Shown piece by piece: positions 55,562 to 61,957 of a stretch of DNA of 64,000 nucleotides (its first letter is position 1; the number at the start of each line of letters is the position of its first letter). The translations under genes and the position numbers were made by a program. The stretch comes from Plasmodiophora brassicae. Taxonomy: Eukaryota. The stretch is from assembly GCA_036867785.1 (NCBI GenBank), contig CP145420.1, positions 186,001-250,000 on the forward strand, written 5' to 3'. A model generated the notes under the pieces. That model did no database searches. It was given only the letters and a program-made list of their open reading frames with translations, and was not told the DNA's origin.

Positions 55562-56833
55562 CTACTCGGTCCAGCGATGGACTTCCATCCCAGTGGGCGC
55601 TTCGATCTTCTCTTCGTAGTCCTTGTCTTTAACCTCCTCCCAGTTTGTCGACAGAACCGTGCCTCCCGATGTCTGATAGGACTTGATCATGGCCCGCTTG
55701 GTCTCGTCGCTTGCATTCCTGTATATCTGCTGGAACAGTCTACACAATCGCCATTGTAAATAAACGCAACATGCCGGCAAGACACTCCAGGACTAACTTG
55801 TTAAGAGCCGCATCACCATCGGGTGTCTCCTTCTCCTCCTCCTCGATAACCTGGCGTTCGATGGAACCCCAGTCCTGTTTCTTCTTGCTTGAAGTCGGGT
55901 ACAATGCAATCAGGTTGCTATCGGAGTTCACGTCGTGTTGAACGCGAGGCCAGGAGCCAGGAGTCGCTTTCTGCAGCATAGCCATCAAATTCCCGCGCGC
56001 GCTTCAACGATTGCACGAGTTCTCGACCTTCATGATCAGCTGGAGTTTGTATCGGTTGAGGTCGAACTTCGACTGGCCGGGCACAATAGTCGCAAACAGA
56101 TGAATCAGCTTATGCATCTTTGAGCCATCGGCAAAGGCGATCTTGACTTCAGCCTGTACGGCAGTGGACTCAGCCACGAGAATACAGGCAGGGGCCACGA
56201 GAGATTACGGCGTCTTCCTTTAGATCCACAGACACGTCCTCCGGTTTCAGATCCTTCGCCAAGATGACATACGTTGCTACATCCGGCTTGTCATAGAATG
56301 AATCTCTCGCCTTCTGCGCCAGGGTGATCGGAGATGCCTCCGGAGGACGTTCTTCCCGTTCATCCGTCGGCGGCGGCGGTGGTGACGGTGATGGCTGTTT
56401 TTCATCCGGACGGGCGTTGGCAGCACCCTCGTCATCCTCGAGTTCGGCAGAACACTTCCGAAGCCACACATCGGCATCCTTTGCCCCAAGAGCCTGCGCC
56501 TTCGTCAAGAACTGCTTTGAGGAACGGAAACTGTCCAGCTGGAACGCGCAGATGCTGCCGGTACCAGCAATCAGCCTTACGTTGGCCGCCAAACGGGGCA
56601 ACCTACCCGGCCCTCAGATTCAACAGCGCATTGTCCGGAGCGAGCTCCAGGCCCTTCTTCGCGTCCACGAGCGCGTCGGCCGCCCGGCCGAGCTTGAGCA
56701 GCGTGGCGGCGCGCCGCCCGTACAGGTCGGCATTGGCCGGGTCGGCGTCGATCGCTTTCGTGTAGGCGCGCAGGGCGCCCTGCCAATCCTCGTCCACGAA
56801 CAGGCCGTTGCCTTCGGACGCGAACGACGCCAT
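55562..56833 (-). CDS. SGT1: SGT1 co-chaperone (TPR-CS-SGS)
   Basis: N-terminal TPR ([11 protein letters not shown]), CS domain, and SGS motifs [48 protein letters not shown]. Confidence 0.95.
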
Positions 56834-57356
56834 GATGCGCGCGCCGCCGCCGCCGCAGCTGCAAACCGCAAAATGCGCCGCCCCGCCCCCGTCCAACAGG
56901 AACAGGCTGCTGACTGCTGACTGCTGAGTGCTGAGTGCGAACACTGACCCGCGACTGCATCGTTCCCGGTTCCTGACCCGTTCGCTGCGTGCGCTCCAGT
57001 GGTCTCCAGTGTCCGTGTGCGTCGCATGGGTAGAAGTCAAACGGCGCGTTGTCAACCTGATGACTGCGCCGGCTCGTGCAGAACGCCCCTGCCAGGATTC
57101 GTCACCGAGTGCGGAGGTCCTCGTCGGTATCTGGCTGGCGAACGTGTTGTAAAGGGAACCTGGCGCTGGCCGGGTACGAAAGGAGCGGCGACCGCCGGGA
57201 CGGTGGACGTGACGGTCGGGTACGACGTACGGGTTGGCGTCCGTGCGGACCCCAACGTGGAGCGAATTATTGGCGCTTTCAGGACAAAATTGGAATTTTG
57301 CGGTGATTTCACGGAGTCCGTGAAATCGCGCCGCATCGGGGGCGCCGCTTGTCGTC

Positions 57357-58469
57357 ATGATCGTCAGCGCCGTCAGACGTCATCACGCATCTGCGGACAC
57401 TCGTTTACACTGCTTGTATGGGTACTATATACTGAACCTTGGCAAAAACCAGCTTGCGTTTATATACGGAAAATCTCCCTCGACAATATCGAACTGGATC
57501 CAGAAGTATGAACGTGATGGTTCGGTTTCTCGTAAGGTGACTCGTCGCATCTACAAGAAACATTCCGAACGTCAGCGCCGTTGGATCGTGGAACTGTTCT
57601 CTGAACACCCGACGTTATTCTTGCACGAAGCGAGGGCGCGGTTTGCGGGCAAGTTCGCGAAGTATATCTCCTGCTCTGAAATATGGGCGATTCTGCAAGA
57701 AGCTCGCTTCACTCGGAAACATGTTGAACGCCGTGCCTTGCAAATTCGAAAACTGGACATCGTTCGATTCTGCAATGATATGCACTTGGTTCGTTGGTCC
57801 CGGGAGAGTCTGGTCTTTCTTGACGAATTCGGGGTCGACAATAGGGACATGTTGCGTACCAAAGGGTTCTGCCTTGTTGGGAAACGCCTAATATACAGAG
57901 GGCAGTTCTCCCGGAAGCCTCGACGCTCAATGCTTGCGTTCGCAAGCGTTCGCGGTCTGGAAGACGTTTTCTCTGTGGAAGGGACTTTCGATCGCAAGAC
58001 ATTTTTCAACTGCTGTCGTCAGTTCGTTCTGCATCATCCTGACATACGCACGTATCCGGGTCGTATGTCTGTCTGGATCATGGACGGTGCTCGGATCCAT
58101 TGCCATCCAGGCATCGTCAATTTCCTGCGATCGCTGGGCATTATGCCGATTTTTTTGCCAGCCTATTGCCCGTTTTACAATCCCATCGAGTTACTATTTG
58201 GGATGATCAAGCGGCGGCTTCGCGAGCTTTATGATGAGCGCTCCGGTTCCGATATTACTGCTGTCATCAATGACGTCTTGGTTGAGTTCAGCAACCGTTC
58301 AATGGAGGAAGTCTTCAAGAAATGCGGGTACGTTTGCGATCACGAATTCGATCCGTCCATCGGCATGCACTGCGACCTGAAGGATCTTGAATTTGATGTT
58401 ACTGTACGCACTGAACAACCCTGGCATCCATTAAGGGCTGTATGTGACATCGTTCAACTTGTAGGTTGA
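57357..58469 (+). CDS. IS630-like DD34E transposase (HTH + DDE)
   Basis: HTH KSPSTISNWIQKY, PTLFLHE, LVFLDEFG, WIMDGARIH, FLPAYCPFYNPIE. 34 residues between the second D and the E. Confidence 0.93.
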   Translation: MIVSAVRRHHASADTRLHCLYGYYILNLGKNQLAFIYGKSPSTISNWIQKYERDGSVSRKVTRRIYKKHSERQRRWIVELFSEHPTLFLHEARARFAGKFAKYISCSEIWAILQEARFTRKHVERRALQIRKLDIVRFCNDMHLVRWSRESLVFLDEFGVDNRDMLRTKGFCLVGKRLIYRGQFSRKPRRSMLAFASVRGLEDVFSVEGTFDRKTFFNCCRQFVLHHPDIRTYPGRMSVWIMDGARIHCHPGIVNFLRSLGIMPIFLPAYCPFYNPIELLFGMIKRRLRELYDERSGSDITAVINDVLVEFSNRSMEEVFKKCGYVCDHEFDPSIGMHCDLKDLEFDVTVRTEQPWHPLRAVCDIVQLVG

Positions 58470-58623
58470 GAACCGGGCCACCTGAAGCTAGGAAGGATAT
58501 ACCACGTCGCGGCAACTGGCAACCTCGTGCACGTGTACTCGCTAAGTTCAATATACTTCAACATTATAAGCCACTGGTGCGTATTATCGATGGTAACATT
58601 CGGGCAAGTCTTCATTTAATGCC

Positions 58624-59586
58624 TTATGCTTCGTCCATGTTCTCCATATCGTTGTCATGATCGACGTCGACCTCATTCGTAATCTCAGCCGCGATCCTGC
58701 GCCCGAAATCGGATTCGCCTGGACGACTGGCTGCTTCCATCGCGGCGATCATCTCTTCGGTGTCAGCAGCGGCTTCATGTAGTGATTCAAGCTGCGTCAT
58801 GAGCAGATTGACGCCCGCCGTGACTGTCTTGAAGCCCGCCGTGACTGTCTTCGCAGTGTCCAAGATGTCTTCCAGCTTCCTCTTAAATCGTTCAGATACA
58901 CATCTTGTTACGCGCATGCTCGTCTGCATGTTGTGGAGGACAGCACCCGAGTCTATTGGAACCATGCGGAACAGGTGGGATAGATGAGGTGGGGGCGCCT
59001 CTGCCGCCCTTTCTTCACGCACCTGCTGCGGCTGGGCCTCGATCCACGCCGCCCACTGCAACCAGTTCGTATCATAGGCGAAGTACTCCGGATGCAGTCG
59101 TCTCAGCGATTCCTTCCGGGCATCCACCAACGCGATAGATGCTGCGCCGGCGCGATCCCTCTCTCGCTGTAGTAGAGCGTTCGAGACAAGTTTGAACATT
59201 GCCGCTGACGTCACCGACAGCGAGTAGCGGTGCACGTACAGAGTGAGCGTCTTACCACAAACGTGATTGAGAACGTCGCTGTTACGATAACGCGATGGCG
59301 GATACGACCGCTTCGCGCTTTCATCGTGCACGACAACGAAATGGTCCAGATCGGCCGCAGTGGGCTGCTCCTCCGACCAATGCGGCGACCGCCCATCATC
59401 GCCGAATCCGACGTGATTCCGGATGTATCCGGCGACTTTCTCCCACATCTGCGACGCCAGGTCATCGTACGAGCTGCAGAGAACGTCCCAGGTCCCGAGA
59501 GACGGCGCCGACGTCTGTCCTTTAAAATCGCGAACGATGATCTTGAAGCACAGGTGGTAGAGTCCATCACGCTGAGCGACGTCCAT
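58624..59586 (-). CDS. Transposon-internal protein of unknown function (~320 aa)
   Basis: Intron-less ORF within the TIRs. Motif ERDRAGAAS...H...NWLQWAAWI...PPPHLSHLF and a coiled-coil-like C-terminus. Confidence 0.75.
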   Translation of the reverse strand: MDVAQRDGLYHLCFKIIVRDFKGQTSAPSLGTWDVLCSSYDDLASQMWEKVAGYIRNHVGFGDDGRSPHWSEEQPTAADLDHFVVVHDESAKRSYPPSRYRNSDVLNHVCGKTLTLYVHRYSLSVTSAAMFKLVSNALLQRERDRAGAASIALVDARKESLRRLHPEYFAYDTNWLQWAAWIEAQPQQVREERAAEAPPPHLSHLFRMVPIDSGAVLHNMQTSMRVTRCVSERFKRKLEDILDTAKTVTAGFKTVTAGVNLLMTQLESLHEAAADTEEMIAAMEAASRPGESDFGRRIAAEITNEVDVDHDNDMENMDEA

Positions 59587-59760
59587 GACGGGCAGCAAGT
59601 CGCGGTTTGGCCGTCCGACGGAGTTCGCCGGATCGGGAAACGAGGGGTCAGCTCTCGCTTGGCGCTTCCGCTACCTGCTGATAGCCGTTGCGGCGCAATT
59701 CGAGTGCGGCGGGATTTTCCCCGCACGACTCCAATTTGGTGCTGACGCCGCCAATATAGC

Positions 59761-61957
<2,197 letters not shown>

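What the first reader, a model, noticed from the sequence alone, without database searches (positions are those of the whole stretch)
57270..59754. Two-gene IS630/Tc1-like transposon: DD34E transposase plus a convergent accessory ORF of unknown function
Seen: TA-flanked imperfect TIRs (26/34 match, with weaker similarity to about 70 bp) enclose two intact, intron-less, tail-to-tail ORFs (370 aa and about 320 aa) in an intron-rich genome. Known: Tc1/mariner/IS630 elements normally encode only the transposase. Inference: ORF2 (DRAGAAS...WLQWAAWI...PPPHL..LF, coiled-coil tail) is a dedicated accessory protein such as a targeting, regulatory or anti-silencing factor, analogous to Harbinger ORF2. 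That would define a poorly described two-component transposon family. I recall similar motifs in uncharacterised oomycete and insect proteins but could not verify this.
Basis: partly seen in the sequence, partly recalled or inferred. Interest (0 to 1): 0.8.

Follow-up and report, generated by a model that had tools for sequence, protein, structure and literature searches.

The report
Mobile two-gene Tc1/IS630-like transposon
This is a real, recently mobile cut-and-paste transposon of the clubroot parasite that, unlike almost all of its Tc1/mariner relatives, always carries a second conserved gene of unknown function next to its transposase.

Summary
Window 57270-59754 is a 2485-bp TA-flanked element with about 70-bp imperfect inverted ends. 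It carries a DD34E IS630/Tc1-type transposase (+) and a convergent 320-aa ORF2 (-). A 100% protein match names the host as Plasmodiophora brassicae.

- **Mobility.** In 3 of 4 laid runs, contigs join 57267 directly to 59755. That is a precise empty site lacking both genes, yet the same runs hold the element next to other flanks.
- **Expression.** RNA-like contigs cover both genes. They also show a 61-nt GT..AG intron at the transposase 3' end, so 'intron-less' is wrong for ORF1.
- **Linkage.** ORF2 has 279 homologous 50% clusters. In 9 of 9 metagenome loci with enough DNA downstream of a related transposase (7 distinct lineages), an ORF2 homologue lies tail-to-tail behind it.
- **Shape.** ORF2 is acidic and matches no Pfam or NCBIfam family. 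It models confidently as a weakly ubiquitin-like beta-grasp domain, a helical domain, a 75-residue helix and a conserved C-terminal D-x-D-H.

So a conserved two-gene ITm family is shown. ORF2's role as a non-catalytic partner or regulator of transposition is inferred, not tested. Eight full-text searches found no description of it; Repbase and Dfam could not be checked.

The parts
57268..57269 (.). TA target-site duplication, left copy
   Evidence: Sequence. The empty-site joint 57267->59755 in runs X7, X12 and X17 skips 2487 nt, with 3 letters fitting either side.
57270..57339 (+). Left terminal inverted repeat (strong block 57270-57306, second block 57324-57339), including the 5' leader and presumed promoter of the transposase
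   Evidence: the repeat finder I1 and I6. End-to-end alignment. A 23-nt palindrome lies at 57305-57327.
57357..58403 (+). Transposase exon 1 (349 codons): HTH region plus DDE_3 catalytic core, D156/D243/E278 = DD34E
   Evidence: Pfam DDE_3 at 9.1e-20, HTH_32 at 3.2e-5. NCBIfam NF033545 IS630 at 112.3 bits against a cut-off of 100. Alignment A2. 169 homologues at E<=1e-10.
58404..58464 (+). 61-nt GT..AG intron at the 3' end of the transposase gene
   Evidence: Joint 58403->58465 in X10 (depth 27.1, side 118) and X17 (depth 122.3, side 118). The spliced reading gives 355 aa, the length of public model P0004.
58465..58485 (+). Transposase exon 2 (6 codons plus stop)
   Evidence: Translation of the spliced sequence.
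58624..59586 (-). ORF2, 320 aa: conserved accessory gene (beta-grasp-like N domain 10-120, helical domain 128-203, long helix 213-287, acidic tail with D307-x-D309-H310)
   Evidence: ORF. 279 homologous clusters. Alignment A1. AlphaFold2 pLDDT 91.1 and 94.7. Fold searches. One RNA-like contig covers 58465-59701 without a joint.
59685..59754 (-). Right terminal inverted repeat (strong block 59718-59754, second block 59685-59700); together with 59587-59684 it forms the 5' leader and presumed promoter of ORF2
   Evidence: the repeat finder I1 and I6. Alignment.
59755..59756 (.). TA target-site duplication, right copy
   Evidence: Sequence. Empty-site joint.

Best explanation
Window 57270-59754 is an autonomous, recently mobile DNA transposon of the IS630/Tc1/mariner (ITm) group in Plasmodiophora brassicae. 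It belongs to a lineage whose elements always carry two inward-facing genes. SHOWN: each end carries an imperfect inverted repeat of about 70 nt. The left half encodes a basic (pI 9.6) HTH + DD34E transposase with one short 3' intron. The right half encodes, on the other strand, an acidic (pI 5.5) 320-aa protein, ORF2. The whole 2485-nt unit is present or absent at a TA site among isolates. Both halves are covered by RNA-like contigs. The convergent gene pair is conserved in distant relatives. INFERRED: the transposase binds the inverted repeats and does TA-specific cut-and-paste, as in other ITm elements. ORF2 has no catalytic or DNA-binding signature. It is built from a ubiquitin-like beta-grasp domain, a helical domain, a long coiled-coil-type helix and a conserved C-terminal D-x-D-H. 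I read it as a non-catalytic, probably oligomeric protein-binding partner that serves the element's own cycle, either as cofactor or regulator of the transposase or as an adaptor to a host factor. I put the two-gene architecture at about 0.9. I put 'ORF2 acts in transposition or its control by protein-protein contacts' at about 0.5.
For: Ends, TA and ORFs. Transposase family: Pfam DDE_3 9.1e-20; NCBIfam IS630 112.3 bits above its cut-off of 100; D156/D243/E278 conserved in 17 sequences. Mobility: contigs of X7 (14,864 nt), X12 (18,332 nt) and X17 (5,952 nt) join 57267 to 59755. The same runs hold element contigs with 0 differences (for example X7 record 21, 2,050 nt) and loose ends at 57268 and 59756/59757 that run into other flanks. 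In X10 a contig bridges the left junction (57082-57303). Expression: RNA-like contigs of X10 cover 57328-58233, 58204-58315 and 58286-59701. The GT..AG joints in the element and in the neighbouring gene show that these contigs derive from spliced RNA. ORF2 is a real protein family: 279 clusters at E<=1e-3, 150 at E<=1e-10, mostly full-length at 290-410 aa. There are 11 invariant columns including W175, W178, A179, P198, P199 and D307..H310. AlphaFold2 gives pLDDT 91.1 for the whole protein and 94.7 for residues 1-210. Linkage: of 16 metagenome loci found with the transposase profile, 9 have 500 nt or more downstream. All 9 carry an ORF2 homologue on the opposite strand directly behind the transposase (E 3.6e-62 to 2.8e-14). 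The other 7 end within about 150 nt of the transposase or are weak partial hits, so they cannot be judged. The 9 loci represent 7 distinct lineages, because L002/L009 and L012/L013 are near-identical. In 6 of 8 lineages the nearest neighbour by transposase is also the nearest by ORF2. Shared taxa: both proteins occur in P. brassicae, Culicidae and chytrid fungi. Adaptor reading: the N domain aligns with Ufm1, RBD, UBL, PB1 and UBX domains (Z 4.4-5.5, 70-90 residues aligned) in a Foldseek-independent search and in a second look at Foldseek's own list. Residues 213-287 form one helix that matches coiled coils. ORF2-like modules are fused to ZAD and C2H2 zinc fingers in Culicoides proteins.
Against: No experiment or computation here shows that ORF2 touches the transposase or affects transposition. 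Fold matches are weak: Z stays below 8, the range the tool itself says may reflect only a common arrangement. The linkage sample is small (7 lineages plus the window) and comes from unnamed metagenome contigs. Two JGI contigs that hold ORF2 homologues (P0126, contig 2,246 nt; P0150, contig 2,749 nt) were not retrieved by the transposase patterns, so their context is unknown. ORF2 evolves much faster than the transposase (15-38% against 37-69% identity between lineages). dN/dS between two near-identical copies was 1.7 on 16 changes, which shows no constraint after insertion. The contigs are unstranded, so sense transcription of ORF2 is not proven. Some ORF2 homologues sit in long multi-domain proteins that look like host genes.
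Confidence: 0.7

Rival explanations
1. ORF2 is an anti-defence (anti-silencing) factor. It does not act in the transposition chemistry but protects the element from host silencing, for instance by mimicking or binding ubiquitin/SUMO-type signalling. This would be analogous to the anti-silencing protein of VANDAL Mutator elements in Arabidopsis (recalled, not checked here).
For: Conserved element-borne gene with its own inward promoter region. Ubiquitin-like beta-grasp N domain. Fast evolution relative to the transposase, as expected in a conflict with the host. An acidic protein that is not DNA-binding in type.
Against: The family spans Rhizaria, Diptera and chytrids, whose silencing machineries differ. 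An antagonist tuned to one host is not expected to keep 11 invariant columns over that range. No similarity to any known suppressor was found.
Confidence: 0.15
2. ORF2 is a self-limiting inhibitor that titrates or poisons the transposase, in the way KP protein does for P elements or Inh for Tn5 (recalled examples). The convergent arrangement would add antisense control.
For: The tail-to-tail genes are 16-70 nt apart in relatives and about 140-155 nt apart here. One RNA-like contig runs from the spliced 3' end of the transposase through all of ORF2, which is compatible with overlapping transcripts. Coiled-coil helix.
Against: Known inhibitors of this type are truncated transposases, whereas ORF2 shares no similarity with the transposase. 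The contig may simply merge two overlapping mRNAs.
Confidence: 0.1
3. ORF2 is a captured or neighbouring host gene, or a chance antisense ORF, and is not part of the transposon's functional equipment.
For: ORF2-like modules occur in long proteins that look like host genes: P. brassicae PBRA_007083-type, and Culicoides ZAD/C2H2 proteins.
Against: The empty site removes ORF2 together with the transposase, inside the inverted repeats. 9 of 9 evaluable distant relatives keep the same gene in the same place and orientation. There are 279 homologous clusters and a confident fold. The long proteins lack the coiled-coil tail and the D-x-D-H end and hold tandem copies, as expected of derived forms.
Confidence: 0.05

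Closest known systems
IS630/Tc1/mariner (ITm) transposons with a DD34E transposase (Tc1 proper, Gambol and IS630-like lineages)
   Same: TA target duplication, short inverted ends, HTH + DDE_3 transposase with 34 residues between the second D and E, and cut-and-paste presence/absence polymorphism.
   Different: Described ITm elements typically carry a single transposase gene. Two papers say so in the passages I read: PMC13469147 (section 12) and PMC7325037 (introduction). Here a second, unrelated gene is a fixed part of the element. I could not decide which named DD34E lineage the transposase belongs to, because no reference sequences were usable.
PIF/Harbinger transposons (transposase plus Myb-like ORF2)
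   Same: Two-gene DNA transposon in which a non-catalytic second protein is conserved with the transposase.
   Different: Different transposase superfamily (DDE_3/IS630 here). TA rather than a 3-nt duplication. ORF2 has no Myb/SANT or other DNA-binding match and is acidic. The Harbinger features are recalled, not tested.
TBE and Tec elements of ciliates
   Same: ITm-related DD34E elements with extra ORFs, one of them on the complementary strand in Tec (PMC7325037, passage on TBE and Tec read).
   Different: Those carry three ORFs, including a zinc-finger protein or a site-specific recombinase, and Tec has 700-nt inverted repeats. ORF2 here has no such domains, and its relatives are in Rhizaria, Diptera and chytrids.
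Dici elements of yeasts (Diutina catenulata)
   Same: TA-flanked ITm elements with a DD34E transposase and additional CDSs, called unusual by their authors (PMC13469147, section 12 read).
   Different: The extra CDSs of Dici are a 143-146 aa orphan and a relic transposase with a homeodomain. ORF2 here is neither, with no IS630 or homeodomain match.
Ubiquitin-like beta-grasp domains (UBL, UBX, PB1, RBD, Ufm1)
   Same: The predicted N domain of ORF2 (about residues 5-125) aligns over most of these domains at Z 4.4-5.5 and rmsd about 3-4 A.
   Different: No sequence similarity (3-19% identity over aligned residues). There are insertions. Z is below the level that separates a shared fold from a common arrangement.

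Membership tests
[quoted passage not shown] | Transposase with the IS630/Tc1-type DDE catalytic domain | tested here: met
   Pfam DDE_3 at 9.1e-20, 71.4 bits against a cut-off of 28.6. NCBIfam NF033545 IS630 at 112.3 bits against a cut-off of 100.
[quoted passage not shown] | Catalytic triad with fixed spacing (here DD34E) | tested here: met
   D243 and E278 are invariant and D156 nearly invariant in 17 aligned transposases. There are 34 residues between D243 and E278.
[quoted passage not shown] | N-terminal helix-turn-helix DNA-binding region | tested here: inconclusive
   HTH_32 at 3.2e-5 (24.8 bits, below its cut-off of 33.7). HTH_23, HTH_29 and HTH_28 are weaker.
[quoted passage not shown] | TA target-site duplication | tested here: met
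   TA on both sides. The empty site in three runs retains a single TA.
[quoted passage not shown] | Terminal inverted repeats | tested here: met
   39 nt at 77% plus 16 nt at 88%. The ends are alignable over about 70 nt.
[quoted passage not shown] | Single transposase gene (typical, not defining) | tested here: not met
   A second conserved gene lies inside the inverted repeats.
Named DD34E lineages (Tc1 proper, Gambol) | Phylogenetic placement of the DDE domain with reference members | not tested
   No reference sequences could be used. A motif look-up in the supplement of PMC8533490 found nothing usable.
PIF/Harbinger two-gene transposons | PIF-type transposase and Myb/SANT-like second protein | tested here: not met
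   The transposase matches DDE_3/IS630 only. ORF2 has no Pfam match at E<=0.01 (the best is DUF948 at 0.03, 14.9 bits against a cut-off of 37.2).
Ciliate TBE/Tec elements | Three ORFs including a zinc-finger protein or a site-specific recombinase | tested here: not met
   Two conserved ORFs. No zinc-finger or recombinase match in ORF2.
Dici elements | Extra CDS that is a degenerate IS630-type transposase with a homeodomain | tested here: not met
   ORF2 has no IS630, DDE or homeodomain match and no similarity to the element's own transposase.
Ubiquitin-like beta-grasp fold (ORF2 residues about 5-125) | beta-beta-alpha-beta-beta-(alpha)-beta grasp topology superposable on UBL domains | tested here: inconclusive
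   Best matches are Ufm1 (Z 5.5, rmsd 3.5, 83 residues aligned), RGS14 RBD (Z 5.5) and BAT3 UBL (Z 5.4). The same class appears. By Foldseek the best is PB1 of Cdc24p at E 0.022. Every Z is below 8.

The most novel reading that the evidence does not exclude
This is the first two-component system in the Tc1/mariner-IS630 world. ORF2 would be an obligatory second subunit, or the targeting and regulatory arm, of the transpososome. It would use a ubiquitin-like domain and a coiled coil to couple the transposase to a conserved eukaryotic pathway. That would explain why the pair has stayed together across Rhizaria, Diptera and chytrid fungi. Its module would then have been domesticated repeatedly, for example into ZAD/C2H2 zinc-finger proteins of biting midges and a three-module protein of P. 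brassicae.
Probability: 0.3. Interest if true: 0.8.

Novelty: new variant of a known kind. Interest (0 to 1): 0.62.

Why it matters
Tc1/mariner-type elements are the textbook minimal transposon, with one gene between two inverted repeats, and they are the basis of widely used gene-transfer tools. A lineage that has kept a second, unrelated protein through deep divergence and across eukaryotic supergroups implies a requirement or advantage that the one-gene model does not cover. It offers a tractable case, about 2.5 kb with two small proteins, for asking what a DNA transposon needs beyond its transposase.

The element is also a live source of variation in an important crop parasite. It is present or absent at this locus among isolates, and here it sits 4 nt upstream of the likely start codon of a FAD-linked oxidase gene. 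The ORF2 module also appears in host-like zinc-finger proteins of biting midges, which is a candidate case of domestication.

Tried and rejected
- **Own genome:** not held, so copy number and other insertions could not be counted directly.
- **The search for related loci with the ORF2 alignment A1:** I searched with the transposase alignment instead.
- **Scans of viral contigs and of prokaryote genome contigs with A2:** no relative found.
- **Co-fold of transposase and ORF2:** no verdict. Median score was 0.66, but one control with an unrelated partner scored 0.48. This is neither for nor against binding.
- **The look-up of sequencing runs:** no RNA holder is on record. The runs marked 'RNA?' are guesses. 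I treat X10 and X17 as RNA-derived only because their contigs carry GT..AG joints.
- **Depth ratios (element against flank):** not used as copy number, as the tool warns against it.
- **Adjacency in mosquito genomes via gene numbers of named proteins:** no adjacent numbers, so uninformative.
- **dN/dS on L012/L013:** the copies are 97.4% identical with 16 changes and omega 1.7, so uninformative.
- **Similarity of the inverted repeats between the window and metagenome loci:** only chance-level hits.
- **Whole-model VIA search:** dominated by the long helix, with coiled-coil hits at Z up to 7.4.
- **Foldseek against the PDB:** no match at E<=0.001.
- **ESM Atlas:** only unnamed arthropod clusters, scores 0.87.
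- **Earlier findings of this scan:** nothing.
- **Low G+C as a sign of recent import:** not pressed. The element is 0.48-0.59 against flanks of 0.62-0.69, but 2-kb windows elsewhere range from 0.52 to 0.67.
- **Literature:** eight full-text searches and passages of six papers gave no description of this ORF2 family. Coy and Tu 2005 on Gambol, Repbase and Dfam could not be consulted.
Full report
**What is there.** The stretch 57268-59756 reads TA, then an imperfect inverted repeat, two convergent ORFs, the matching repeat, then TA.
- The repeat finder ranks the terminal pair 57268-57306 / 59718-59756 (39 nt, 77% complementary) as the longest of 26 inverted pairs in 57100-59900. It also finds a second terminal block, 57324-57339 / 59685-59700 (16 nt, 88%).
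- The ORFs are 57357-58469 (+), 370 aa, and 58624-59586 (-), 320 aa.
- The window holds no second copy of either gene or of the element.
- A 100%-identical public protein names the organism as Plasmodiophora brassicae. No whole genome is held for the window.

**ORF1 is an IS630/Tc1-type transposase.**
- It matches Pfam DDE_3 (9.1e-20) and, below the gathering score, several HTH families.
- It exceeds the curated cut-off of NCBIfam's IS630 model (112.3 bits against 100).
- In an alignment with 16 relatives, D243 and E278 are invariant and D156 nearly so, which gives DD34E.
- 169 relatives score E<=1e-10. The best, apart from P. brassicae paralogues, are 42-50% identical. Where named, they come from mosquitoes (Aedes, Culex, Armigeres, Sabethes, Wyeomyia, Toxorhynchites, Topomyia, Uranotaenia, Ochlerotatus), Bradysia, a chytrid (Chytriomyces confervae) and a marine-protist transcriptome.
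- No relative was found in the viral or the prokaryote genome collections with the same profile.

**The element is a unit that moves.** I laid Logan contigs of four public runs on window 56800-60200.
- In three runs (X7 and X12, DNA; X17, RNA-like), long contigs (14,864, 18,332 and 5,952 nt) join 57267 directly to 59755. They skip 2487 nt, with 3 letters fitting either side.
- The same three runs hold element contigs identical or nearly identical to the window (for example 2,050 nt with no difference in X7). Loose ends at 57268 and at 59756/59757 continue into several different sequences, so in those isolates the element sits elsewhere.
- In X10 one contig bridges the left junction (57082-57303, 34 nt inside the element). 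At the right junction a contig starts 28 nt inside the element, which is below the tool's bar of 31.
- Further joints suggest variant or internally deleted copies, on short sides: 57556->58843 with a side of 28 nt, and 59258->59726 replaced by 36 other letters.
- I do not use depth as copy number, as the tool warns against it.

**Expression and gene structure.** No run is on record as RNA. However, contigs of X10 and X17 carry GT..AG joints in the neighbouring gene (59869->59928, 60091->60156) and in the element (58403->58465), so they derive from spliced RNA.
- The element's intron is 61 nt. Removing it ends the transposase after 349 + 6 codons. That is 355 aa, the length of the public model, and close to where relatives end. 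'Intron-less' is therefore wrong for ORF1, though the unspliced frame stays open.
- In X10, RNA-like contigs cover 57328-58233, 58204-58315 and 58286-59701. The last runs from the spliced 3' end of the transposase through all of ORF2 without a joint.
- ORF2 therefore has no intron, and its region is represented in RNA. The contigs are unstranded and may merge two overlapping convergent transcripts.

**ORF2 is a real, widespread protein family without a name.**
- It matches no Pfam family at E<=0.01 (the best is DUF948, E 0.03, 14.9 bits against a cut-off of 37.2) and no NCBIfam family at E<=0.1.
- An exhaustive phmmer search of 1.84 billion cluster representatives gave 279 hits at E<=1e-3, 150 at E<=1e-10 and 16 at E<=1e-30. 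Most are 290-410 aa and aligned end to end.
- Named members come from Culex pipiens pallens, C. quinquefasciatus, Aedes albopictus, Armigeres subalbatus, Sabethes cyaneus, Ochlerotatus camptorhynchus, the chytrid Irineochytrium annulatum and P. brassicae. Many others sit on Logan or JGI contigs of 1.2-3.7 kb.
- In 42 aligned sequences, 11 columns are invariant (M1, F21, L161, W175, W178, A179, P198, P199, F206, D307, H310).
- The ESM Atlas offers only unnamed arthropod clusters.

**Linkage to the transposase.** The ORF2 alignment was too variable for a DNA pattern search, so I searched JGI metagenome contigs with the transposase alignment and obtained 16 loci. Profiles of both proteins were then run over six-frame translations.
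- Nine loci have 500 nt or more downstream of the transposase: L001, L002, L003, L004, L008, L009, L011, L012 and L013. All nine carry an ORF2 homologue on the opposite strand directly behind it (E 3.6e-62 to 2.8e-14). By stop-to-stop frames the gap between the two genes is 16-70 nt in eight of the nine.
- The other seven loci end within about 150 nt of the transposase or are weak partial matches, so they cannot be judged.
- L002/L009 (99.5%) and L012/L013 (97.4%) are near-duplicates, so the nine represent seven lineages. Their transposases are 37-69% identical to each other and 37-50% (63% on one 70-column fragment) identical to the window's.
- In 6 of 8 lineages the nearest neighbour by transposase is also the nearest by ORF2. 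ORF2 identities are much lower (15-38%).
- Together with the empty site that removes both genes, this shows a conserved two-gene element rather than a one-off capture.

**What ORF2 looks like.**
- AlphaFold2 with the 42-sequence alignment gives mean pLDDT 91.1 (pTM 0.55). The model has an alpha/beta domain (residues 10-120), helices 128-203, one 75-residue helix (213-287) and a short tail. A model of residues 1-210 alone gives pLDDT 94.7.
- Foldseek finds nothing at E<=0.001. Its best row is the PB1 domain of Cdc24p (E 0.022).
- VIA-align on Foldseek's list, and independently on 48,161 PDB representatives with the 1-210 model, puts ubiquitin-like beta-grasp domains on top: Ufm1 Z 5.5, RGS14 RBD 5.5, BAT3 UBL 5.4, then TBCB, TBK1, Rsa4, UBX and PB1. 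They align 70-90 residues. These Z values are in the range the tool calls possibly a common arrangement, so the fold assignment is a lead.
- The whole model matches only coiled coils through its long helix.
- ORF2 is acidic (pI 5.5, tail 4.05), while the transposase is basic (9.6).
- A co-fold with the transposase gave no verdict.

**Derived forms.**
- A 675-aa P. brassicae protein (its cluster includes PBRA_007083) holds three tandem copies of the ORF2 N domain and one copy of the W..WA/PP..LF region, but no coiled-coil tail.
- Proteins of Culicoides brevitarsis (1,100 aa) and C. sonorensis (671 and 1,059 aa), and one Logan cluster, combine a ZAD domain and tandem ORF2-like modules. In the 1,100-aa protein these are joined by C2H2 zinc fingers.
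- These look like domesticated or otherwise derived host genes. I did not examine their genomic context.

**Mechanism.**
- *Shown:* the anatomy, the TA-precise presence/absence, RNA representation of both halves, and conservation of the gene pair.
- *Established for ITm elements and inferred here:* the transposase binds the inverted repeats and carries out TA-specific cut-and-paste.
- *Inferred for ORF2:* it is a non-catalytic, probably oligomeric protein-binding partner acting in the element's own cycle, as cofactor, regulator or adaptor to a host factor. This rests on its domain make-up, its acidity, the lack of any DNA-binding or enzymatic signature, and its fusion to DNA-binding domains in derived proteins.
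- *Rivals:* an anti-silencing factor, a self-limiting inhibitor with antisense overlap, or (largely excluded) a captured host gene.

**Comparison and novelty.**
- The element is a member of the ITm group by every defining feature tested, but it departs from the group's typical one-gene layout.
- Known multi-ORF relatives are different. Ciliate TBE and Tec carry three ORFs with zinc-finger or recombinase proteins (PMC7325037, passages read). Yeast Dici carries an orphan CDS and a relic transposase, and its authors call three CDSs unusual for the group (PMC13469147, section 12 read).
- Harbinger is analogous only in having a second protein.
- Eight full-text searches found no description of this ORF2 family. 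Repbase, Dfam and the original Gambol paper could not be consulted, so an existing database entry cannot be excluded.
- I rate it a new variant of a known kind, of moderate to high interest for transposon biology.

Noticed in passing
window 59755-60200: The element sits 4 nt upstream of a candidate start codon (59761) of a spliced gene whose exons match FAD_binding_4 and FAD-oxidase_C. In run X10, which has the insertion, a 2,606-nt RNA-like contig of that gene begins at 59727, inside the right inverted repeat. The insertion may therefore supply part of the gene's 5' leader or promoter.
   Followed up: partly
window 57305-57327: A 23-nt near-perfect palindrome (22 of 23) lies in the left subterminal region only, between the two conserved blocks of the inverted repeat.
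   Followed up: no
proteins P0151, P0195, P0293, P0143 (Culicoides brevitarsis, C. sonorensis, one Logan cluster): Long proteins combine a ZAD domain and three tandem ORF2-like modules. In P0151 they also carry C2H2 zinc fingers. This is a candidate domestication of the transposon's accessory protein in biting midges.
   Followed up: partly
protein P0125 / P0273 (P. brassicae, PBRA_007083-type): A 664-675 aa protein with three tandem copies of the ORF2 N domain and one W..WA/PP..LF region, without the coiled-coil tail. One source names it 'START domain-containing', but Pfam found no family at E<=0.01.
   Followed up: partly
L004:1-299 and L004:3758-4107: A related two-gene element has long terminal inverted repeats built of tandem sub-repeats, with arms up to 139 nt at 84-99% complementarity. 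The contig ends inside them.
   Followed up: no
window 57556-58843 and 59258-59726: Contig joints in other isolates suggest an internally deleted copy lacking 1,286 nt (X12, X17; side only 28 nt). They also suggest a variant in which 467 nt at the ORF2 5' end are replaced by 36 other letters (X7, X12).
   Followed up: no
L003:1315-2100: In this relative the ORF2 frame keeps the central and C-terminal blocks, but its N-terminal part is a His/Gln/Pro-rich repeat instead of the beta-grasp-like domain.
   Followed up: no
window 56603-56920 (-): The gene to the left of the insertion encodes TPR repeats (TPR_2 at 1.9e-9). The element lies in the space between this gene and the FAD-linked oxidase gene.
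   Followed up: no
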